Of a DNA stretch of 64,000 nt, positions 1,243-56,641 are shown piece after piece. The position numbers and the translations under genes are program-made. The stretch is from Escherichia coli (GTDB lineage Bacteria; Pseudomonadota; Gammaproteobacteria; Enterobacterales; Enterobacteriaceae): the NCBI RefSeq assembly GCF_044324785.1, contig NZ_CP172127.1; one strand, given 5' to 3'. Positions within the stretch are counted from its first letter, which is position 1. Each line of letters opens with the position of its first letter. The notes beneath the pieces are model-generated. The model saw nothing but the letters and a program-made list of their open reading frames with translations. It had not been told where the DNA came from and made no database searches.

Positions 1243-2142
1243 CTAAACAGCACCTTTATACTTCAGCCTATCTATAAATAATGAGAATGCCGAGCCAGCA
1301 TGTCGACGGTGTGGATAGTACAGGTGATAACCGGGTAAATCTGGTGTGAATTTATCCAAAACACGTATCAGTTTTTTTTCTTTAATAGCCCGCTCAACCT
1401 GATCATAAGGTAGATACGCCAACCCATGCCCATCAATTGCAGCATCAATGATCAGGTCTATCGTATTCAGTAAAAGCTGACCTTCCATGCGAACACGAAC
1501 TTCACGTCCACCGCGTATTAATCTCCAGCGATTTGCTGTACCCGATGTGGGAAGATACAAATTAATTGCCTGATGATCTATTAATTGTGACACTGACGTT
1601 GGAGCACTTCGACGAGAAAAATAATCCGGTGAGCCAACAATAGCCATTGGTATATCTGGCCCGATTCGAATGGCGATCATATCTTTATCCATCTCCCCAC
1701 CCAGACGGACGCCTGCATCAAAACGTTCAGAAACGACATCGGTCAAACCATAATCAATGGTAAGCTGGATATCAATTTCAGGATGCGATTTCAGGAATGT
1801 GCGCATAGCTGGTAACAATATCGTTTTTGCTGCATGTTCTACAGTAGTAATACGTATTGTCCCGGATGGGCGGTTCTGCAGATCGCTCAGGGATGTCAGG
1901 GCAGAATCTATGTCATGCAACATAGGGCCAAGAACAGACAAAAGATGCTCGCCCGCTTCAGTGGGTACAACGCTGCGCGTGGTTCGCGTCAGAAGCCGCA
2001 ATCCTAATCGTTCTTCTATACGGCGCACTATCTGGCTTAAAGCTGACTGCGCCATGCTCAGGCGGGCTGCTGCGCGAGTGAAGCTACGCTCCTCTGCAAC
2101 GACGACAAACGCCATCAGATCAGCGATTTCTTCACGCTTCAT
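1243..2142 (-). CDS. pgrR: LysR-family transcriptional regulator (PgrR/YcjZ)
   Basis: 299 aa; N-terminal helix-turn-helix (SFTRAAARLSMAQSALSQIVRRIEERLG) typical of LysR regulators; divergent from the ycjY operon. Confidence 0.85.
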   Translation of the reverse strand: MKREEIADLMAFVVVAEERSFTRAAARLSMAQSALSQIVRRIEERLGLRLLTRTTRSVVPTEAGEHLLSVLGPMLHDIDSALTSLSDLQNRPSGTIRITTVEHAAKTILLPAMRTFLKSHPEIDIQLTIDYGLTDVVSERFDAGVRLGGEMDKDMIAIRIGPDIPMAIVGSPDYFSRRSAPTSVSQLIDHQAINLYLPTSGTANRWRLIRGGREVRVRMEGQLLLNTIDLIIDAAIDGHGLAYLPYDQVERAIKEKKLIRVLDKFTPDLPGYHLYYPHRRHAGSAFSLFIDRLKYKGAV

Positions 2143-2163
2143 TCAGTATCTCCATACAATCTA

Positions 2164-2210
2164 TTAATCATTTAAATGATAGGTCTAATCATGATTTTGG
2201 GTCTAATCAA
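2164..2210. promoter_or_regulatory. Cluster of palindromes and direct repeats in the pgrR/ycjY divergent intergenic region; candidate LysR-type operator
   Basis: Perfect palindrome ATCATTTAAATGAT (2167-2180), palindrome AATCATGATT (2187-2196), and direct repeat GGTCTAATCA at 2182-2191 and 2200-2209. Confidence 0.4.
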
Positions 2211-2267
2211 CTTAATGATCAATATCTATAGTGATATCACCAACCGTCAAAACGAACCGACAACTCC

Positions 2268-3200
2268 ATGAGGAACGGAATGATGAATAATAAAGTCAGC
2301 TTCACTAACAGCAATAATCCAACCATCTCTTTGTCTGCAGTGATCTATTTCCCTCCAAAATTTGATGAAACCCGTCAGTATCCGGCAATTGTGGTATCTC
2401 ACCCAGGTGGGGGCGTTAAAGAGCAAACGGCCGGAACCTATGCCGAAAAACTGGCGGAAAAGGGATTTGTCACTATTGCTTATGACGCATCTTATCAAGG
2501 TGAAAGCGGCGGCGAGCCGCGTCAGTTAGAAAACCCATACATTCGTACTGAAGACGTCAGTGCCGTGATTGATTACCTGACAACGCTTTCTTATGTCGAC
2601 AATACCCGAATTGGTGCGATGGGAATTTGTGCCGGTGCAGGATATACAGCCAATGCTGCAATTCAGGATCGCCGCATCAAGGCCATCGGTACTGTTAGTG
2701 CGGTCAATATTGGTTCGATGTTCCGTAATGGTTGGGAAAACAATGTGAAATCTATTGATGCCCTACCATACGTTGACGCGGGTTCAAACGCCCGAACCAG
2801 CGATATTAGCAGCGGAGAATACGCCACTATGCCACTGGCACCAATGAAGGAGTCCGATGCGCCGAACGAAGAACTGCGTCAGGCCTGGGAGTATTACCAC
2901 ACCCCTCGCGCGCAGTATCCAACAGCACCGGGTTACGCTACTTTGCGCAGCCTTAACCAGATTATTACCTATGATGCTTACCATATGGCGGAAGTGTACC
3001 TGACTCAGCCGATACAGATTGTGGCGGGCAGCCAGGCAGGGAGCAAATGGATGAGTGACGACCTGTACGATCGAGCATCAAGCCAGGATAAACGCTATCA
3101 CATTGTTGAAGGCGCAAACCATATGGATCTTTATGACGGCAAAGCCTATGTGGCTGAAGCAATTTCAGTATTAGCTCCGTTCTTTGAGGAAACTCTGTAA
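2268..3200 (+). CDS. ycjY: Alpha/beta-fold hydrolase with Cys in the nucleophile elbow (GICAGAG), YcjY-like
   Basis: 310 aa; G-x-C-x-G nucleophile elbow; first gene of the operon divergent from pgrR. Confidence 0.75.
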   Translation: MRNGMMNNKVSFTNSNNPTISLSAVIYFPPKFDETRQYPAIVVSHPGGGVKEQTAGTYAEKLAEKGFVTIAYDASYQGESGGEPRQLENPYIRTEDVSAVIDYLTTLSYVDNTRIGAMGICAGAGYTANAAIQDRRIKAIGTVSAVNIGSMFRNGWENNVKSIDALPYVDAGSNARTSDISSGEYATMPLAPMKESDAPNEELRQAWEYYHTPRAQYPTAPGYATLRSLNQIITYDAYHMAEVYLTQPIQIVAGSQAGSKWMSDDLYDRASSQDKRYHIVEGANHMDLYDGKAYVAEAISVLAPFFEETL

Positions 3201-4132
3201 TGAAACATATTCAAATCCGCAATAGTGATATGGCCTGGCATATTGCTGCCAATATTCAGTTTCCACCAAATTTTGATGAGTCAAAACAGTATCCGGCGAT
3301 TATCAGCGTCCATCCTTTTGGCAGTTGTAAGGAGCAGACGTCTGGCAATATCTATGGCAAGGCATTGGCTGAAAAAGGCTATGTCGTTCTCGCTTATGAC
3401 GCCAGTTTCCAGGGAGAATCTGGTGGGGAGCCTCGTTGGATAGAAGATCCGACACAGCGCGTTGAGGATATTAGCCGTGTTATCGATTATGCAGTAACTC
3501 TGCCATATGTTGATGCTGAACGCATTGGCGTGCTGGGTGTGTGTGGGGGGGGTGGCTATGCCATTAATGCCGCGCTGACAGAAAAACGAATTAAAGCTGT
3601 AGTGAGTATTACGGGTGTTAATATCGGGCGTCTTTTTCGAGAAGGTTTCAGCAATTACGATCCGATTGGCGCATTGAATGCAATGGCGTCGCAACGAACC
3701 AAAGAGGCTCGTGGTGGAGAATTACAGATCAACGAATTACTTCCCGCCAGCCTGGATGCAGCAAAAGCCCATGGACTGACCGAACGCGATGTTTATGAAG
3801 CAACTGACTACTATAAAACACCACGCGGGCAACAACCGGGAGGTGCGACAAAAATGTTGTTCTCACATGCACAGAAAACGCTGGCCTGGGATGCCTTCGC
3901 ATTTACTGAAGTGTTACTGACTCAGCCGGTGATGGTAGTAGTTGGTGAAAAAGTCGGTGCCTTCGGTGCTTATCGTGATGGACTGGAAGTCTATGGCCGG
4001 GCGATGGTTTCGCAGGATCGTCAGTTAGTTTCGTTACCCGATTTCTCACATTATGAACTGTATGACAAACCGGAAGCAGTTCAGGAGGCGCTGGAAAAAG
4101 TTATTCCTTTTTTCAACACCCATCTGGGATAA
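3200..4132 (+). CDS. Tandem paralog of ycjY: alpha/beta hydrolase with Cys nucleophile (GVCGGGG)
   Basis: 310 aa, roughly 45% identical to the upstream gene by eye; stop/start overlap TAATG at 3198-3202 suggests translational coupling. Likely the intact form of the locus I recall as a pseudogene (ymjD) in K-12. Confidence 0.7.
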   Translation: MKHIQIRNSDMAWHIAANIQFPPNFDESKQYPAIISVHPFGSCKEQTSGNIYGKALAEKGYVVLAYDASFQGESGGEPRWIEDPTQRVEDISRVIDYAVTLPYVDAERIGVLGVCGGGGYAINAALTEKRIKAVVSITGVNIGRLFREGFSNYDPIGALNAMASQRTKEARGGELQINELLPASLDAAKAHGLTERDVYEATDYYKTPRGQQPGGATKMLFSHAQKTLAWDAFAFTEVLLTQPVMVVVGEKVGAFGAYRDGLEVYGRAMVSQDRQLVSLPDFSHYELYDKPEAVQEALEKVIPFFNTHLG

Positions 4133-4137
4133 GTTTC

Positions 4138-4788
4138 ATGAGAAATATTATGAAAAAAGTACTCATTCTTGGTGCTGGCGGTCAGATAGCCCGCCATGTG
4201 ATTAATCAACTGGCAGATAAACAAACCATTAAACAAACTTTATTTGCTCGTCAGCCAGCAAAAATACACAAACCCTATCCAACTAATAGCCAGATTATTA
4301 TGGGGGATGTACTGAATCATGCAGCACTGAAGCAGGCCATGCAGGGACAGGATGTTGTGTATGCCAACCTTACGGGGGAAGATTTAGATATTCAGGCAAA
4401 TTCAGTGATCGCTGCGATGAAAGCCTGTGATGTTAAACGTCTGATCTTTGTTCTTTCCCTCGGTATTTATGATGAAGTTCCAGGAAAATTTGGCGAATGG
4501 AATAATGCAGTTATTGGTGAACCCCTAAAACCATTCCGCAGGGCTGCGGATGCAATTGAGGCTTCTGGACTGGAATATACAATTCTTCGCCCTGCCTGGC
4601 TGACTGATGAAGATATTATTGATTATGAGCTTACCTCACGCAATGAACCATTCAAAGGTACGATCGTATCACGTAAGAGTGTCGCCGCATTAATTACAGA
4701 TATCATCGATAAACCTGAGAAACACATTGGTGAGAATATAGGCATCAATCAACCCGGGACTGATGGCGATAAACCCTTCTTCATGTAA
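4138..4788 (+). CDS. NAD(P)-binding Rossmann protein (NmrA/atypical-SDR-like)
   Basis: 216 aa; N-terminal VLILGAGGQIARH dinucleotide-binding motif. Probably the intact counterpart of the K-12 pseudogene ymjC. Confidence 0.65.
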   Translation: MRNIMKKVLILGAGGQIARHVINQLADKQTIKQTLFARQPAKIHKPYPTNSQIIMGDVLNHAALKQAMQGQDVVYANLTGEDLDIQANSVIAAMKACDVKRLIFVLSLGIYDEVPGKFGEWNNAVIGEPLKPFRRAADAIEASGLEYTILRPAWLTDEDIIDYELTSRNEPFKGTIVSRKSVAALITDIIDKPEKHIGENIGINQPGTDGDKPFFM

Positions 4789-25893: not shown

Positions 25894-27537
25894 ATGCGCC
25901 AGGTATTATCGTCTCTTTTGGTGATTGCTGGACTTGTGAGTGGTCAGGCAATCGCCGCGCCTGAATCCCCCCCGCATGCTGATATCCGCGACAGCGGTTT
26001 TGTCTATTGCGTTAGCGGGCAAGTCAACACCTTTAACCCATCCAAAGCGAGCAGTGGGTTAATTGTCGATACCCTTGCCGCCCAGTTTTATGATCGACTG
26101 CTGGATGTCGATCCCTATACCTATCGCCTGATGCCGGAACTTGCCGAAAGCTGGGAAGTTCTCGACAACGGCGCGACCTATCGCTTCCACCTGCGTCGCG
26201 ATGTTCCGTTTCAAAAAACCGACTGGTTTACTCCCACTCGTAAAATGAATGCCGACGATGTGGTGTTTACCTTCCAGCGAATTTTTGACCGCAACAACCC
26301 GTGGCATAACGTCAACGGCAGCAACTTCCCCTACTTCGACAGCCTGCAATTTGCCGATAACGTGAAAAGCGTCCGCAAACTGGATAATCATACGGTTGAG
26401 TTCCGACTCGCCCAGCCGGATGCTTCTTTTTTGTGGCACCTGGCGACCCATTATGCATCGGTCATGTCGGCAGAATATGCCGGGAAGTTAGAGAAAGAAG
26501 ATCGCCAGGAACAACTCGACCGTCAACCGGTTGGCACCGGTCCGTATCAGTTGTCGGAATACCGCGCCGGGCAATTTATTCGCTTACAACGTCATGATGA
26601 TTTCTGGCGTGGTAAGCCGTTGATGCCACAAGTGGTGGTGGATTTAGGCTCTGGCGGTACAGGACGATTGTCGAAACTCCTGACCGGGGAGTGCGACGTT
26701 CTGGCCTGGCCTGCTGCCAGTCAGCTATCCATTTTGCGTGACGACCCACGCTTGCGTTTAACGCTGCGTCCTGGGATGAACGTCGCCTATCTGGCATTTA
26801 ACACCGCCAAGCCGCCGCTAAATAATCCCGCTGTCCGCCATGCGCTGGCACTGGCGATCAATAACCAGCGTCTGATGCAATCCATCTATTATGGTACGGC
26901 TGAAACGGCAGCCTCTATTTTACCGCGCGCCTCGTGGGCCTATGACAACGAGGCTAAAATTACTGAATACAATCCGGCGAAATCGCGCGAACAGTTGAAG
27001 GCGTTGGGGCTGGAAAACTTAACGCTGAAACTGTGGGTGCCAACACGTTCGCAGGCGTGGAACCCCAGTCCACTGAAAACCGCCGAACTGATTCAGGCGG
27101 ATATGGCACAGGTTGGCGTAAAAGTGGTGATTGTGCCGGTAGAAGGTCGCTTTCAGGAGGCGCGGTTGATGGATATGAGCCATGATCTGACGTTATCCGG
27201 TTGGGCGACTGACAGTAACGACCCGGACAGTTTCTTCCGTCCGTTACTGAGCTGCGCAGCAATTCATTCGCAGACCAACCTCGCCCACTGGTGCGATCCG
27301 AAATTCGACAGCGTGTTGCGTAAGGCGCTCTCCTCGCAGCAGCTGGCGGCGCGTATTGAAGCCTATGACGAAGCGCAAAGTATTCTGGCGCAGGAATTAC
27401 CTATTCTGCCGCTGGCGTCGTCATTGCGTTTGCAGGCCTATCGGTACGATATCAAAGGTCTGGTACTTAGTCCGTTTGGTAACGCCTCCTTTGCTGGGGT
27501 GTATCGCGAGAAACAGGATGAGGTGAAAAAACCATGA
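25894..27537 (+). CDS. sapA: ABC transporter periplasmic binding protein SapA
   Basis: 547 aa with signal peptide. Confidence 0.9.
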
Positions 27538-30369: not shown

Positions 30370-31176
30370 ATGATCGAAACGTTGCTTGAAGTGCGTAATT
30401 TAAGTAAAACGTTCCGCTACCGGACCGGCTGGTTTCGTCGTCAGACCGTAGAAGCGGTAAAACCCTTGAGCTTTACGCTACGTGAAGGCCAGACACTGGC
30501 GATCATTGGCGAGAATGGTTCTGGTAAATCCACGCTGGCAAAAATGCTGGCGGGAATGATAGAACCTACCAGCGGCGAGTTATTGATTGACGATCATCCG
30601 CTGCATTTTGGCGATTATTCCTTCCGCAGTCAGCGTATCCGCATGATTTTTCAGGATCCTTCGACCTCGTTGAATCCCCGTCAACGTATCTCGCAAATTC
30701 TGGATTTTCCACTGCGTCTGAACACCGATCTGGAACCTGAACAGCGTCGCAAACAGATTATTGAAACGATGCGTATGGTTGGGCTGCTACCGGATCACGT
30801 CAGTTACTATCCGCATATGTTGGCACCCGGGCAAAAACAGCGTCTGGGGCTGGCGCGCGCGCTGATATTGCGCCCAAAAGTCATTATTGCCGATGAAGCC
30901 CTCGCCTCACTGGATATGTCGATGCGTTCGCAGTTGATTAATCTGATGCTGGAGTTACAGGAAAAACAGGGCATTTCGTATATTTATGTTACCCAGCATA
31001 TCGGAATGATGAAGCACATTAGCGACCAGGTGCTGGTGATGCATCAGGGCGAGGTTGTCGAGCGAGGCAGCACCGCGGATGTGCTGGCATCGCCGCTGCA
31101 TGAACTCACCAAACGGCTTATTGCCGGTCATTTTGGCGAGGCATTGACGGCGGATGCGTGGCGTAAGGACCGTTAA
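30370..31176 (+). CDS. sapF: ABC transporter ATPase SapF
   Basis: 268 aa; Walker A GENGSGKS. Confidence 0.9.
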   Translation: MIETLLEVRNLSKTFRYRTGWFRRQTVEAVKPLSFTLREGQTLAIIGENGSGKSTLAKMLAGMIEPTSGELLIDDHPLHFGDYSFRSQRIRMIFQDPSTSLNPRQRISQILDFPLRLNTDLEPEQRRKQIIETMRMVGLLPDHVSYYPHMLAPGQKQRLGLARALILRPKVIIADEALASLDMSMRSQLINLMLELQEKQGISYIYVTQHIGMMKHISDQVLVMHQGEVVERGSTADVLASPLHELTKRLIAGHFGEALTADAWRKDR

Positions 31177-31805
31177 CAGGTTTCCTGGCTAGTACAATAT
31201 TCTTCACCGATAGCATCAGGGTCGATAAAGGGATACTCATTTTGCATAATATCCTGTAAATATTGTGCAAAATTAACAGCAATGACCTGATAGCTATCGG
31301 GATCATGTAAATAACGAACAATTTGTCCAGATTTTCCTTTTGGAGATGGAGAAAAGTCGATATATAAACGTGAAGTGCCGCCATTATTAATGCAATGAGC
31401 AAAACAGAGCCAGCGATGAAACGGTACAGTTGGATCTATACGTTCATCAACATCGACTTCGTCCATTTGCCCATCGTAGATTTTCATGATGGATTCCTGA
31501 CCAAACCATGACTTTCTTTCCTCCAAAATCTGCTGGGCAGACTGGAGATAATAGGGATATTCTCCGCCTTCAACATCCGCCCCTAAAACGGGTAAAAATA
31601 CCTTTTTATCCTGATGTTGTTGAAAATAAGTTCCCTTGATCTGGCGAAGCAAACCGAGTAAATCCTCCGAAGAATCAGGATATTCATGGAGAAGTTCTGT
31701 TATATCGCTTTCTTGCGCTCCAGACAGTGTTGCAAATAATGCCCTGACATCCGTTGGCAAATGTGCGGCAAGCCCGGCCAAATATTCCTGATACATTGTC
31801 ATCAT
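31173..31805 (-). CDS. Hypothetical 210-aa protein, low-GC; possibly SUKH/SMI1-KNR4-like
   Basis: Convergent with sapF, stop codons overlapping; visibly AT-rich against the surrounding DNA. Family assignment is a guess from the C-terminal NNGGTSRLYIDFSP...GQIV pattern. Confidence 0.5.
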   Translation of the reverse strand: MMTMYQEYLAGLAAHLPTDVRALFATLSGAQESDITELLHEYPDSSEDLLGLLRQIKGTYFQQHQDKKVFLPVLGADVEGGEYPYYLQSAQQILEERKSWFGQESIMKIYDGQMDEVDVDERIDPTVPFHRWLCFAHCINNGGTSRLYIDFSPSPKGKSGQIVRYLHDPDSYQVIAVNFAQYLQDIMQNEYPFIDPDAIGEEYCTSQETC

Positions 31806-31999
31806 AACGTCCTTTTTTAATCCATAATGAACAGCGTGTTTTGACTGTTTTTCTTAACAAAAGTTCCTGCTGTGCAACGCTCTGGCTCTTTAGTCCTTTC
31901 GTCGCTTATAATAGCTTTTTTCGGTCTTCCTCTTTCTCAAGAGAAAAGCTGCCTGATGTACAGGCACTGAAACGAGTATCAACAATAAGGATTAAAGCT

Positions 32000-32788
32000 A
32001 TGGGTTTTCTTTCCGGTAAGCGCATTCTGGTAACCGGTGTTGCCAGCAAACTGTCCATCGCCTACGGTATCGCTCAGGCGATGCACCGCGAAGGAGCTGA
32101 ACTGGCATTCACCTACCAGAACGACAAACTGAAAGGCCGCGTAGAAGAATTTGCCGCTCAATTGGGTTCTGACATCGTTCTGCAGTGCGATGTTGCAGAA
32201 GATGCCAGCATCGACACCATGTTCGCTGAACTGGGGAAAGTTTGGCCGAAATTTGACGGTTTCGTACACTCTATTGGTTTTGCACCTGGCGATCAGCTGG
32301 ATGGTGACTATGTTAACGCCGTTACCCGTGAAGGCTTCAAAATTGCCCACGACATCAGCTCCTACAGCTTCGTTGCAATGGCAAAAGCTTGCCGCTCCAT
32401 GCTGAATCCGGGTTCTGCCCTGCTGACCCTTTCCTACCTTGGCGCTGAGCGCGCTATCCCGAACTACAACGTTATGGGTCTGGCAAAAGCGTCTCTGGAA
32501 GCAAACGTGCGCTATATGGCGAACGCGATGGGTCCGGAAGGTGTGCGTGTTAACGCCATCTCTGCTGGTCCGATCCGTACTCTGGCGGCTTCCGGTATCA
32601 AAGACTTCCGCAAAATGCTGGCTCATTGCGAAGCCGTTACCCCGATTCGCCGTACCGTTACCATTGAAGATGTGGGTAACTCTGCGGCATTCCTGTGCTC
32701 CGATCTCTCTGCCGGTATCTCCGGTGAAGTGGTCCACGTTGACGGCGGTTTCAGCATCGCTGCAATGAACGAACTCGAACTGAAATAA
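32000..32788 (+). CDS. fabI: Enoyl-ACP reductase (NADH)
   Basis: 262 aa from [16 protein letters not shown]; the ORF-track start at 31841 is an upstream extension. Confidence 0.95.
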
Positions 32789-32931: not shown

Positions 32932-34059
32932 ATGGAACAACGCCACATCACCGGCAAAAGCCACTGGTATCATGAAACGCAATCCAGTACTGCGGAATAT
33001 GACGTTCTGCCTCTGGTCCCGGAAGCCGCAAAGGTTAGCGATCCCTTTCTGCTCGACGCGATCCTTGATGAAAAAACGCTGGCCCCCTTCCTTTCATGGC
33101 TGGTCCCGGCGCGCGTTCTTGCAGCGGAGTTATTCCCTGACCAGCTTACCGTGACCCGTTCACAGACCTTCAACGCTTATGAACGCTTGTCGACGGCCCT
33201 GACGGTTGCTCAGGTTTGCGGCGTCCAGCGGTTATGTAACTACTATTCGGCGCGACTTACGCCGCTCCCCGGGCCTGATTCCTCCAGGGAAAGTAATCAT
33301 CGGTTGGCACAAATCACGCAATATGCCCGCCAACTGGCCAGCTCGCCTTCTATTATCGACAACCGATCGCGCCAACATCTGAATGACGTCGGTCTTACTG
33401 CCTGGGACTGTGTAATCATTAACAAAATCATTGGTTTTATTGGCTTTCAGGCGCGGACAATTGCGACATTTCAGGCTTATCTCGGGCATCCGGTACGCTG
33501 GTTACCAGGTCTGGAGATACAAAACTACGCCGACGCGTCACTGTTTGCTGATGAATCATTACGCTGGCGAAGCAGCTATGAGGTGGAAAAACTACCTGAA
33601 GAGCACACAAAAAGTTCAACTGCAGAACTTTGCCAACTGGCCGAAATACTCTCTCTCCACCCTATTTCACTTTCCCTTCTCGAAAAGTTGTTAAACAGCA
33701 CACGGGTCAATACACAGCCGGATAATCAGCTTGCGGCGTTGTTATGCGCGCGTATAAATGGCAGTCCTGCTTGTTTTGCCACCTGTATGGATTCATCAAA
33801 TGAATATAAAAAAATCAGCACCCTTATGCGCAAGGGCGAAAATGAAATTAACCAATGGGCTGACCGTCATTCTGTTGAGCGCGCTACCGTTCAGGCGATA
33901 CAATGGCTGACCCGAGCACCCGATCGCTTTAGCGCCGCCCAGTTCAGCCCTTTACTCGAACACGAAAAATCATCAACGCAGATTATTAATCTGCTGGTAT
34001 GGAGCGGGCTGTGTGGCTGGATAAATCGCTTAAAAATCGCGTTGGGTGAGACATATTAA
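32932..34059 (+). CDS. yciW: YciW (AhpD-like/CMD-domain protein)
   Basis: 375 aa from [15 protein letters not shown]; AAGGAG ribosome-binding site upstream. Confidence 0.8.
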
Positions 34060-55639: not shown

Positions 55640-56641
55640 CTATAACATTATTCCGCTGGCAATAAGTAATTTTGCCAGCCCCTCAGACGCCTTTAACCCA
55701 CTAATGACCTGTGCGCGTAATATTTCATTTAATCTTTTTTGTTCAGCTGCCGTGCGTGTTTTATTAACGTATAAGCTTTTCAGATAATCACCCTTATCTA
55801 TAAAGGCATTTAAAGCCTCAATCGCAGGCATGGCAGGTGCCGATGCCTGTAGTCTGGTTTCATTCACATTGATTACTGAACTTAGAAACTCCTTCCTGTT
55901 TTTCAGAGTGTTAAACTCTGTATTCTTAGAGTTTTTAGATGCCGTATTATAATAAAACATATTATCATGCACATTCGCAAAGGTATAATTTTCAATCTTA
56001 TTGCTTTTTGTATAAATATCATTGCGCAAAACTGCCATGTTCTTTATAAGTCTTACCCAGTTTTCATCTACCGTTTTGCCTATTTTTCCAGAATTGACTT
56101 TAATTATATATAACTCATTGAAATAATTTACCAAATCTTTAACCGCTGCTGCAGATTGAGCTAAATCTTTGCTATGTGAAACACCAAGTAGTGTTTGTGC
56201 GTTGTTTGCGTGATCCAGAGCCTGTTTAAGTAATGCCACTTGCTGACTTTCCGTAGTTGCCATATCCTTTGTCAGAAGTTCCACATAAGCGCTCATGCTA
56301 TTAATGACTTCCATTGAAGCCAGTAATTTTTCTTTCTCGAAAGGGACTAATTGTACTTGTTTTGTATTTGGCCCTGAACGCTGGCATAATTTTCCGCCAT
56401 TCCCATCACCGCCTATATCAATGGTATAATCAGGTCGCAGGGCACAATCCGGATTAGTCGCGTAGAAATTAACAAGGAAGTTTTCACGAGAAGCATAGTA
56501 TTGTTTAAAGAAACTTGCATTCGCCGCTACTGCTTTGTTACCCGCAGTAATAACAGTTTCAGCTTGTTCGTTTTTCAATGCTTCAGTTGCACAACCTGAA
56601 AGCATTAACAGCGATAGAAATATTCCACTATATCTAATCAT
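55640..56641 (-). CDS. Hypothetical 333-aa lipoprotein, no recognisable domain
   Basis: Signal peptide with lipobox LSGC; GAGGTGG ribosome-binding site; AT-rich coding sequence unlike the flanking genes. Confidence 0.65.
   Translation of the reverse strand: MIRYSGIFLSLLMLSGCATEALKNEQAETVITAGNKAVAANASFFKQYYASRENFLVNFYATNPDCALRPDYTIDIGGDGNGGKLCQRSGPNTKQVQLVPFEKEKLLASMEVINSMSAYVELLTKDMATTESQQVALLKQALDHANNAQTLLGVSHSKDLAQSAAAVKDLVNYFNELYIIKVNSGKIGKTVDENWVRLIKNMAVLRNDIYTKSNKIENYTFANVHDNMFYYNTASKNSKNTEFNTLKNRKEFLSSVINVNETRLQASAPAMPAIEALNAFIDKGDYLKSLYVNKTRTAAEQKRLNEILRAQVISGLKASEGLAKLLIASGIML

What the first reader, a model, noticed from the sequence alone, without database searches (positions are those of the whole stretch)
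31173..31805. Low-GC 210-aa ORF convergent with sapF, possibly an orphan SUKH-type immunity-like protein
The gene between sapF and fabI is conspicuously AT-rich and encodes an acidic 210-aa protein with no signal peptide. Its C-terminal region loosely resembles SMI1/KNR4 (SUKH) proteins, a family that includes immunity proteins of polymorphic toxin systems. No toxin gene is adjacent, so it would be an orphan. K-12 carries ycjD at this position; I cannot tell from memory whether this ORF is its ortholog or a replacement.
Basis: partly seen in the sequence, partly recalled or inferred. Interest (0 to 1): 0.5.

Follow-up and report, generated by a model that had tools for sequence, protein, structure and literature searches.

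The report
Rare solitary SUKH gene replacing ycjD
The AT-rich gene between sapF and fabI is a real, foreign-looking SMI1/KNR4 (SUKH-1) protein that replaces ycjD in a rare E. coli lineage; public annotation already names the family, and what it binds is unknown.

Summary
Window 31173-31805 (-) is an intact 210-aa ORF, acidic (pI 4.4), with no hydrophobic segment. Its GC is 41% against a mean of 51% for the window's genes. Its stop codon overlaps the sapF stop inside GTTAAC.

It is a SUKH-1 protein. Pfam SMI1_KNR4 scores 5.9e-9. The AlphaFold model has pLDDT 94, and its best solved match is the yeast Knr4/Smi1 core.

It is not a ycjD ortholog. The whole sapF-fabI spacer (31177-31950) is replaced. 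Of 5,426 complete E. coli genomes, 3,377 carry the ycjD spacer, one (strain N3) carries this gene, and two non-ycjD genomes I inspected carry the eefRABCD efflux island. It is therefore a third state of a locus published as dimorphic.

The immunity role is unproven. The protein belongs to a strongly conserved ~200-aa subfamily found in several phyla. I found no shared neighbour and recognised no toxin beside it in about 40 loci. Its nearest paralogues (61-62% identical) end a HEAT/ARM-repeat plus SWIM cassette. That cassette is built from the same kinds of protein as the accessory genes of type XIII retrons.

Verdict: an ordinary new member of a known family; low to moderate interest.

The parts
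31173..31805 (-). Coding sequence of a 210-aa cytoplasmic SUKH-1 (SMI1/KNR4) protein. The alternative start at 31800-31802 gives 209 aa.
   Evidence: ORF. Pfam PF09346 at 5.9e-9. AF2 pLDDT 94.3. Foldseek to Knr4 core at 3.9e-9. Exact match to public proteins P0121 and P0122. dN/dS 0.21 against a second allele.
31810..31814 (-). Shine-Dalgarno-like AAGGA, 4 nt before the first ATG and 7 nt before the second.
   Evidence: Read directly from the sequence. DNA similarity to the paralogue locus L005 extends through this motif to 31817. No experimental support.
31172..31177 (.). GTTAAC palindrome holding both stop codons: sapF TAA at 31174-31176 and the SUKH TAA on the opposite strand at 31173-31175. 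This is the left breakpoint of the replaced segment.
   Evidence: The alignment with K-12 loses identity immediately after the sapF TAA.
31177..31950 (.). Lineage-specific segment of 774 bp, GC 0.41. It replaces the K-12 ycjD spacer and, in other strains, the ~8-kb eefRABCD island.
   Evidence: BLAST breakpoints at 31176 and 31951 against K-12. GC. Found in only 1 of 5,426 complete genomes. No flanking direct or inverted repeats and no IS.
31806..31999 (.). Divergent 194-bp intergenic region shared with fabI. It presumably holds the promoters of both genes. Positions 31806-31950 are unlike the fabI upstream region shared by K-12 and NU14.
   Evidence: Alignment A3. The consensus scan found no promoter-like site here at its threshold. 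A TATAAT at 31907-31912 (+) sits within about 2 nt of the register of the K-12 TATAAT; its function is inferred only.
31950..31966 (+). Conserved hairpin in the fabI leader (TGCCTGATGTACAGGCA). This is the right breakpoint, where homology to K-12 and NU14 resumes.
30370..31176 (+). sapF, the conserved left flank (last gene of sapABCDF).
   Evidence: No nonsynonymous differences from the L004 allele (dN 0, dS 0.084).
32000..32788 (+). fabI, the conserved right flank (essential enoyl-ACP reductase).

Best explanation
This is a horizontally acquired, functional, cytoplasmic single-domain SUKH-1 protein. It occupies the sapF-fabI variable slot of a minority E. coli lineage in place of ycjD or the eef efflux operon.

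Like other SUKH proteins, it most likely acts without catalysis, as a stoichiometric protein binder. The most probable role is standing ('orphan') protection. It would bind and block a toxic protein domain, probably of nuclease type. That domain could be delivered by competitors or made by a resident conflict module.

Shown here: the gene is real, it belongs to the family, it is foreign in composition, it replaces the K-12 spacer, and it is under purifying selection. Inferred only: what it binds, and that binding is protective.
For: - Family and fold: Pfam SMI1_KNR4 at 5.9e-9. AF2 model with pLDDT 94.3. Foldseek to Knr4 at 3.9e-9, the FBXO3 SUKH domain at 2e-4, BF1740 at 5.6e-3 and, weakly, Syd at 0.03.
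- The SUKH superfamily was defined as a binder of structurally diverse partners and as the predicted immunity protein for nuclease and deaminase toxins (PMC3113570).
- Orphan SUKH genes have been shown experimentally to protect against T6SS effectors in Bacteroidales (PMC12247911).
- Accessory, foreign character: GC 0.41. Present in 1 of 5,426 complete genomes. Patchy across phyla and on Bacillus megaplasmids.
- Maintained by selection: dN/dS 0.21. None of the 24 allelic differences falls on the 27 family-invariant positions, where 3.1 would be expected by chance.
- In Pseudomonas it occurs as tandem duplicates and inside runs of small genes that include another SMI1_KNR4 gene.
- The nearest paralogues sit 13-33 nt downstream of a SWIM protein. 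Retron work describes the retron-linked members of that protein family as carrying a nuclease/transposase-like DEDE motif. I did not check the motif in this protein.
- Domain-level match to PADLOC candidate defence component PDC-M40A at 9.4e-11.
Against: - No toxin gene lies next to it in the window.
- The 43 non-Stenotrophomonas loci in which the gene could be called share no neighbour. No polymorphic toxin was recognised in the three loci with Pfam-annotated genes or among ten same-strand neighbours read by eye. Eight of those ten lay upstream; they included UvrA, a LacI-type regulator, an ADP-ribosylglycohydrolase and a SUKH-LRR protein. A fucosidase lies upstream in the Pfam-annotated Chitinophaga locus.
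- The subfamily is unusually conserved for an immunity protein: 45-49% identity between E. coli and Bacteroidota or Bacillota, and 27 invariant columns in 40 diverse sequences.
- In Stenotrophomonas it sits among housekeeping-type genes whose families recur across many species.
- The nearest solved structures are eukaryotic Knr4 and FBXO3. The characterised bacterial protein YobK matches only at E 0.13.
- No promoter was predicted, and no expression data are available.
Confidence: 0.45

Rival explanations
1. It is a conserved adaptor or regulator rather than an immunity protein. It would bind a conserved endogenous partner, as the SUKH-2 protein Syd interacts with the SecY secretion system and as yeast Knr4 interacts with signalling proteins, and modulate that partner.
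For: - Strong conservation across phyla, with the motifs YPYYL, CxNNGGTS and GQxxRxLHDPD invariant.
- Always a solitary gene with unrelated neighbours.
- In Stenotrophomonas it sits among housekeeping-type genes whose families recur across many species.
- The best structural and sequence matches are the Knr4 core and the FBXO3 SUKH domain, which act as interaction hubs.
Against: - Very patchy distribution: 323 tblastn-confirmed matches among the genomes of 100,044 species. In E. coli it is present in 1 of 5,426 complete genomes and is clearly dispensable.
- Low GC and carriage on megaplasmids point to horizontal spread.
- dN/dS 0.21 is about ten times higher than in the flanking housekeeping genes.
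Confidence: 0.3
2. It is a stranded accessory of a HEAT/ARM-repeat plus SWIM conflict module. That module is built from the same kinds of protein as the accessory genes of type XIII retrons, but here without a reverse transcriptase. The solo copy would be a leftover, or a cross-acting inhibitor or regulator of the SWIM protein.
For: - The closest relatives outside this locus (61-62% identity) are the last gene of a cassette. The cassette has two DUF6493/DUF7824/DUF7825 proteins followed by one SWIM protein.
- That cassette lies at the same chromosomal region in E. coli, Escherichia sp. and K. aerogenes. Shigella-labelled proteins belong to the same protein cluster.
- The SWIM protein matches PADLOC SWIM_XIII at 1e-60.
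- The published type XIII retron pairs a SWIM protein carrying a DEDE motif with HEAT/ARM-repeat proteins.
- The SUKH gene survives in K. aerogenes when the rest of the cassette has decayed.
Against: - No ARM or SWIM gene or remnant lies beside the window gene. DNA similarity to the cassette copy covers only the coding sequence and the ribosome-binding site.
- Only two of 5,426 complete E. coli genomes hold a related cassette; strain N3 is not one of them, and the one of the two that I inspected has no SUKH gene.
- Among the 80 loci retrieved, only the Escherichia paralogue locus showed the cassette gene families.
Confidence: 0.12
3. It is a passenger gene with no current function, carried along by recombination at a hotspot and slowly decaying.
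For: - The window allele departs from nearly invariant family residues at two positions, S46 for P and A76 for S.
- No promoter was predicted.
- Constraint is relaxed relative to the flanks.
Against: - The ORF is intact in every allele seen, and the exact protein is indexed in about 290 blocks of the public collection.
- dN/dS is 0.21 at dS 0.23, and no substitutions fall at invariant positions.
- A ribosome-binding site is present.
Confidence: 0.08
4. It is the ortholog of K-12 ycjD, merely diverged.
For: It occupies the same position between sapF and fabI.
Against: - Opposite strand, different length (210 against 117 aa) and a different family (SUKH-1 against DUF559).
- No sequence similarity (best BLASTP E 0.46).
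- No DNA homology across the spacer.
Confidence: 0.01

Closest known systems
Saccharomyces cerevisiae Knr4/Smi1 ordered core (PDB 5J1B, 8AJ2)
   Same: Best structural match (Foldseek E 3.9e-9, TM 0.61 over 191 columns) and the only significant sequence match among solved structures (E 0.001-0.002). Both share the D..P.P.GK..QI......D....VIA.N...FL signature.
   Different: Only 17% identity. Knr4 carries long disordered N- and C-terminal extensions and is a fungal cell-wall signalling hub. The bacterial protein is a compact ~200-aa domain with extra invariant residues (C138, N140, H167) that Knr4 lacks.
Bacterial SUKH-1 proteins of the YobK type (B. subtilis YobK, PDB 2PRV; SUKH superfamily of Zhang et al. 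2011, PMC3113570)
   Same: Same Pfam family and fold class: small, acidic, cytoplasmic and non-catalytic. The superfamily paper predicts its bacterial members to be immunity proteins against nuclease toxins.
   Different: By the family's own gene-neighbourhood argument, cognate immunity genes lie next to their toxin gene (PMC3113570); this gene lies next to none. The structural match to YobK is weak (E 0.13, TM 0.37-0.48). This subfamily is larger and far more conserved.
Orphan dual-SUKH I2 immunity genes in Bacteroidales rAID arrays (PMC12247911)
   Same: SUKH genes with no adjacent effector that nevertheless protect against T6SS effectors. This is a precedent for a functional orphan SUKH gene.
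   Different: Those proteins have two SUKH domains, sit in recombinase-associated arrays and have identifiable cognate homologues linked to a WHH nuclease effector. The window gene has one domain, stands alone between housekeeping genes and has no known cognate effector.
Syd (SUKH-2, PDB 3FFV)
   Same: A solitary SUKH-superfamily protein tied to a housekeeping system (SecY-dependent secretion) rather than to a toxin. It is the model for the non-immunity rival.
   Different: Different SUKH group. The structural match is weak (E 0.03), and there is no sequence match.
The published sapF-fabI dimorphism in E. coli: eefRABCD versus ycjD (PMC12817139)
   Same: Same chromosomal slot with the same flanking genes. 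In every state the cargo begins just after sapF and ends in the fabI upstream region.
   Different: The paper describes two states and never mentions SMI1/KNR4. The window carries a third cargo. It also replaces roughly 80 further bases of the fabI upstream region that the other two states share.

Membership tests
SUKH-1 / SMI1_KNR4 (Pfam PF09346) | Significant match to the family profile HMM | tested here: met
   i-E 5.9e-9, score 37.0, residues 65-184 on model positions 38-124 of 125. All 120 listed homologues carry precomputed PF09346.
SUKH-1 / SMI1_KNR4 (Pfam PF09346) | SUKH alpha+beta fold, similar to solved members | tested here: met
   AF2 pLDDT 94.3, pTM 0.91. Foldseek to Knr4 at 3.9e-9, FBXO3 SUKH at 2e-4, BF1740 at 5.6e-3, Syd at 0.03 and YobK at 0.13. 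The AFDB50 top hits are all SMI1/KNR4 proteins.
SUKH-1 / SMI1_KNR4 (Pfam PF09346) | Conserved C-terminal sequence signature shared with Knr4 | tested here: met
   Residue-level alignments to Knr4 cover ...NNGGTSRLYIDFSPSPKGKSGQIVRYLHDPDSYQVIAVNFAQYL.
Cognate immunity protein of a polymorphic toxin system | Encoded immediately downstream of, and co-oriented with, a toxin gene that has a variable C-terminal domain | tested here: not met
   The window neighbours are sapF and fabI. No toxin was recognised in the three Pfam-annotated homologue loci or among ten same-strand neighbours inspected by eye, and the 43 non-Stenotrophomonas loci share no neighbour. Most neighbours had no domain annotation.
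Cognate immunity protein of a polymorphic toxin system | Rapid diversification or hypervariability between strains | tested here: inconclusive
   Two E. coli alleles differ at 24 of 210 residues, with dN/dS 0.21 and dS three times that of the flanks. That is more relaxed than the neighbours but not positive selection. Across phyla the family is strongly conserved.
Cognate immunity protein of a polymorphic toxin system | Binds and neutralises a specific toxin | not testable with these tools
   This needs co-expression rescue and binding assays; no candidate toxin has been identified.
Orphan immunity gene arrays (rAID-like or immunity islands) | Located in an array of immunity genes, often with a recombinase | tested here: not met
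   In the window it is a single gene between housekeeping genes, with no repeats, IS or recombinase. Only some Pseudomonas homologues lie in small-gene arrays.
YcjD / DUF559 | Sequence similarity and the same orientation as K-12 ycjD | tested here: not met
   Best BLASTP E 0.46. Opposite strand. No DNA homology.
HEAT/ARM-repeat plus SWIM cassette (accessory-gene set of type XIII retrons) | Co-operonic SWIM_XIII-type protein and HEAT/ARM-repeat (DUF6493) proteins | tested here: not met
   Absent from the window locus. Present only beside the 61-62% paralogues.
PADLOC candidate defence system PDC-M40 | Match to component A together with the system's partner gene(s) | tested here: inconclusive
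   Component A matches at 9.4e-11 over the SUKH core only. The partner components are not described in any source available here, and both neighbours are housekeeping genes.

The most novel reading that the evidence does not exclude
The solitary, strongly conserved, Knr4-like SUKH subfamily is not a toxin-specific immunity protein. Instead it would be a general inhibitor or regulator of the nuclease-like SWIM proteins found in HEAT/ARM-repeat plus SWIM conflict modules, which are relatives of the accessory genes of type XIII retrons. The solo copy in the sapF-fabI slot would then be a free-standing brake or decoy for such modules. This would give the subfamily a defined partner and link SUKH proteins to retron-type defence.
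Probability: 0.12. Interest if true: 0.55.

Novelty: new member of a known kind. Interest (0 to 1): 0.25.

Why it matters
The direct value is modest.

- It settles that this ORF is a genuine SUKH-1 gene and a replacement of ycjD, not its ortholog.
- It adds a third, rare cargo to a junction recently published as a two-state marker (eefRABCD against ycjD) separating E. coli phylogroups.
- The replacement also swaps most of the upstream region of the essential fabI gene. That makes it a natural experiment on fabI expression.

More broadly, the protein belongs to a conserved, solitary, uncharacterised SUKH subfamily. That subfamily is the closest bacterial relative I found of the yeast Knr4 and human FBXO3 SUKH domains. 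The nearest paralogues are linked to a SWIM plus HEAT/ARM-repeat cassette, which gives a concrete, testable candidate partner. If the gene does act as orphan immunity, its lineage-restricted presence could affect competition between E. coli strains in the gut.

Tried and rejected
**Searches that found nothing**
- NCBIfam: no family for the protein.
- PHROGs: none.
- Phage genomes by tblastn: no match.
- Enterobacterial plasmids: none. The 47 plasmid hits are mostly Bacillus megaplasmids at 42-49% identity.
- Rfam and tRNA scans of the locus: nothing.
- Repeat search around the insert: only short chance-level repeats, with no target-site duplication or IS ends.
- Promoter and terminator scan: counts no higher than in shuffled sequence. 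The only terminator-like site is the conserved fabI leader hairpin read on the other strand.
- Literature searches for 'DUF4132' with 'SWIM' and for 'PDC-M40': no papers.

**Analyses with limits**
- My own ORF calling on the 80 related loci was noisy in high-GC genomes. Spurious long ORFs masked the target in seven non-Stenotrophomonas loci and in many of the Stenotrophomonas loci. I used it only for coarse synteny.
- Most neighbouring genes in those loci had no domain annotation, so 'no toxin recognised' rests on three Pfam-annotated loci and ten proteins read by eye.
- The dN/dS values printed for yciW and rnb are artefacts of a one-base coordinate offset and should be ignored.

**Ideas rejected or set aside**
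- ycjD orthology.
- A conserved GNAT acetyltransferase partner. One follows the gene in Lysinibacillus and in one Pseudomonas locus, but the downstream genes elsewhere are unrelated.
- A catalytic role for the invariant Cys, His and Asp residues. Part of this motif aligns with the signature shared with Knr4, so I treat it as probably structural.
Full report
**1. The observation**

Window 31173..31805 (minus strand) is an uninterrupted 210-codon ORF with an ATG start. At this base composition, the probability of 210 codons without a stop is 1.45e-6. About 0.01 such ORFs would be expected in the whole window over six frames.

The gene has GC 0.412 and GC3 0.346. The 49 long ORFs (>=150 aa) of the window that I took as genes average 0.512 (sd 0.039) and 0.530 (sd 0.077). 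This gene is therefore the second most AT-rich in the window, at z = -2.5 and -2.4. The sliding-window profile dips to 0.39-0.44 across 31200-31950.

The protein is acidic (pI 4.44) and has no hydrophobic stretch of signal-peptide or membrane type.

The gene converges on sapF. The two stop codons overlap inside GTTAAC at 31172-31177. An AAGGA motif lies 4 nt before the first ATG and 7 nt before the second. Public annotations use both starts, giving 210 and 209 aa.

**2. What the protein is**

Pfam SMI1_KNR4 (SUKH-1) matches residues 65-184 at i-E 5.9e-9. NCBIfam and PHROGs give nothing.

An AlphaFold2 model built on a 40-sequence alignment is very confident, with pLDDT 94.3 and pTM 0.91. Its matches among solved structures were as follows:

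| Solved structure | Foldseek E-value |
|---|---|
| Yeast Knr4/Smi1 core (TM 0.61, 191 columns) | 3.9e-9 |
| SUKH domain of human FBXO3 | 2e-4 |
| Bacteroides BF1740 | 5.6e-3 |
| Syd | 0.03 |
| B. subtilis YobK | 0.13 |

Sequence searches of the PDB find only Knr4, at E 0.001-0.002. In the AlphaFold database the top matches are all roughly 200-aa 'SMI1/KNR4' proteins from many phyla.

The protein is therefore a full-length SUKH-1 domain, and the similarity is not loose or limited to the C-terminus. RefSeq already names the protein of strain N3, which differs at one residue, 'SMI1/KNR4 family protein'.

**3. Replacement, not orthology**

In K-12 the spacer holds ycjD. That gene is 117 aa, belongs to DUF559 and lies on the same strand as sapF. 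YcjD and this protein are unrelated (best BLASTP E 0.46).

DNA homology to K-12 runs at 98% up to the sapF stop (31176) and resumes at 31951, which is 49 nt before the fabI ATG at the conserved leader hairpin TGCCTGATGTACAGGCA. The 774 bp in between are unrelated.

No repeats, IS ends or tRNA flank the segment. The exchange looks like allelic replacement through recombination in the conserved flanks, not transposition. That mechanism is inferred.

**4. Population picture**

Among 5,426 complete E. coli genomes:
- 3,377 have at least 80% of the K-12 ycjD spacer.
- Exactly one, strain N3 from a human rectal swab, has this segment, at 99.9% identity.
- Two genomes without the ycjD spacer that I inspected, NU14 and E2348/69, carry an ~8-kb efflux island of TetR, RND adaptor, RND pump, outer-membrane factor and MFS genes. 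I did not survey the remaining ~2,000 genomes.

A 2026 paper describes this junction as a dimorphism. It places eefRABCD in phylogroups B2, D, E, F and G, and ycjD in A, B1 and C plus ST69 and ST182. It never mentions an SMI1/KNR4 gene (PMC12817139). The window therefore shows a third state.

This state is rare but not unique. The exact protein (P0121/P0122) is indexed in about 290 blocks of the public assembly collection. All 24 contigs that were read show sapF-SUKH-fabI.

A second allele at the same locus (L004) is 89% identical in protein. Between the two alleles dS is 0.234 and dN is 0.050, so dN/dS is 0.21. The flanking genes have dS 0.03-0.11 and dN/dS below 0.03. None of the 24 amino-acid differences hits a family-invariant position, where 3.1 would be expected by chance.

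The gene is therefore under purifying selection, though more relaxed than its neighbours. The two alleles are older than the divergence of the surrounding backbone.

**5. The subfamily and its contexts**

Beyond Escherichia and Klebsiella, the next relatives are 45-49% identical. They come from Chitinophaga, Capnocytophaga, Paenibacillus, Lysinibacillus, Bacillus, Listeria, Pseudomonas, Burkholderia and Stenotrophomonas.

A 40-sequence alignment has 27 invariant and 23 nearly invariant columns. They include the motifs YPYYL, CxNNGGTS and GQxxRxLHDPD.

A scan of one genome for each of 100,044 species found 323 matches confirmed by tblastn. Homologues occur on Bacillus megaplasmids but not on enterobacterial plasmids or in phages.

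Gene neighbourhoods give no support for a cognate toxin:
- The 43 non-Stenotrophomonas loci in which the gene could be called share no neighbour family across genera.
- Ten same-strand neighbours were inspected by eye, eight of them upstream. They include UvrA, a LacI-type regulator, an ADP-ribosylglycohydrolase, a membrane protein I read as bestrophin-like and a SUKH-LRR protein. A fucosidase lies upstream in the Pfam-annotated Chitinophaga locus. None looks like a polymorphic toxin.
- In Stenotrophomonas the gene lies among housekeeping-type genes whose families recur across many species. By my reading of their sequences these include ispB-, lysA- and phzF-like genes.
- In some Pseudomonas genomes it is tandemly duplicated, or it sits in a run of small genes that includes another SMI1_KNR4 gene.

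**6. A lead from the nearest paralogues**

The closest relatives outside the sapF-fabI locus are P0003 and P0004, at 61-62% identity. They are encoded in E. coli, Escherichia sp. MOD1-EC7003 and K. aerogenes, and Shigella-labelled proteins belong to the same cluster.

These genes are the last gene of a tightly packed cassette: two ~870-aa DUF6493/DUF7824/DUF7825 proteins, then a ~448-aa SWIM protein, then SUKH. The cassette lies in the thiMD / yegW / fbaB region.

The SWIM protein matches PADLOC model SWIM_XIII at 1e-60. The type XIII retron paper describes this pairing: a protein with a DEDE motif, a winged helix and a SWIM domain, encoded next to HEAT/ARM-repeat proteins (PMC7736814). No reverse-transcriptase gene is called in the loci shown.

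Variants of the cassette exist. One has three DUF6493 genes and no SUKH. One in K. aerogenes has decayed but keeps the SUKH gene.

The window gene has no trace of these partners. DNA similarity to the cassette copy covers only the coding sequence and the ribosome-binding site. The window protein also matches the PADLOC candidate component PDC-M40A at the domain level, at 9.4e-11.

**7. How it most likely works**

SUKH domains are non-catalytic binders of structurally diverse proteins. In bacteria they are the predicted, and now partly demonstrated, immunity proteins for nuclease-type toxins, and this includes orphan copies (PMC3113570; PMC12247911).

I therefore commit to a stoichiometric protein-binding and neutralising role as a standing, orphan protection factor, with confidence 0.45.

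The solitary context, the strong conservation and the Knr4-like structure keep a Syd- or Knr4-style adaptor role as a serious rival (0.30). A link to the ARM/SWIM module is a smaller but testable possibility (0.12). A decaying passenger gene is unlikely given the selection signal (0.08). ycjD orthology is refuted.

**8. Verdict**

In kind it is ordinary: a new member of a known family, already named by automated annotation. Two modest points are new. It is a third cargo at a junction published as dimorphic, and it belongs to an uncharacterised, conserved, solitary SUKH subfamily whose nearest paralogues suggest a partner. Interest 0.25.

Noticed in passing
window 55640-56641 (-): A 333-aa ORF between cobO (btuR) and rluB has the lowest GC of the 49 long ORFs of the window that I compared (0.376; GC3 0.323). 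It has no NCBIfam match and is 'hypothetical protein' in strain N3. At least 80% of the 1.7-kb stretch is present in only 1,120 of 5,426 complete E. coli genomes, at widely varying identity. This looks like another variable accessory slot.
   Followed up: partly
window 1243-4788: A small cluster of a divergent LysR regulator (1243-2142, -), two tandem 310-aa alpha/beta hydrolases with weak UilS-lactonase-like matches (2268-3200 and 3200-4132), and a low-GC (0.422) 216-aa protein with a weak NAD(P)-binding epimerase-like N-terminus (4138-4788).
   Followed up: partly
window 31806-31950: Most of the upstream region of the essential fabI gene is replaced along with ycjD. K-12 and NU14 share about 80 nt of fabI upstream sequence that the window lacks. 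A TATAAT (31907-31912) persists within about 2 nt of the same register relative to the conserved leader hairpin.
   Followed up: partly
L005 1-6624; L097 2393-9624; L099 1-8796; L094 7965-9624: A cassette of two or three DUF6493/DUF7824/DUF7825 (HEAT/ARM-like) proteins plus a SWIM protein (PADLOC SWIM_XIII at 1e-60), with or without a terminal SUKH gene. It lies in the thiMD / yegW / fbaB region in E. coli, Escherichia sp. and K. aerogenes. The proteins are of the same kinds as the accessory genes of type XIII retrons, but no reverse-transcriptase gene is called nearby. One K. aerogenes copy has decayed and keeps only a DUF7824 fragment and SUKH.
   Followed up: partly
L001 996-2638 (strain N3): sapA is annotated as a frameshifted pseudogene in N3, while the window has an intact 547-aa sapA ORF at 25894-27537.
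   Followed up: no
window 32932-34059 (yciW) against L001: The window and N3 are 99.8-100% identical from the SUKH gene through fabI and the spacer after it, but only 97.2% identical in yciW, the next gene. This suggests a recombination mosaic around the junction.
   Followed up: no
L087 (labelled Bacillus subtilis SK7B5): This contig carries the gene families and order typical of the Stenotrophomonas loci around its SUKH homologue. It is probably a contaminant or a mislabelled contig.
   Followed up: no
L012, L031, L042 (Pseudomonas): The SUKH homologue is tandemly duplicated (L031, L042). In L012 it sits at the end of a run of small same-strand genes that includes another weak SMI1_KNR4 gene and a DUF7716 gene, downstream of an HSP70-like gene. 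The arrangement resembles an immunity-island layout.
   Followed up: partly
AFDB50 hit A0A9P7C5R8: A 162-aa protein labelled Rhizopus delemar is 39% identical to the window protein and falls inside this otherwise bacterial subfamily. It could be a transfer to a fungus, or sequence from a bacterial contaminant or associate.
   Followed up: no
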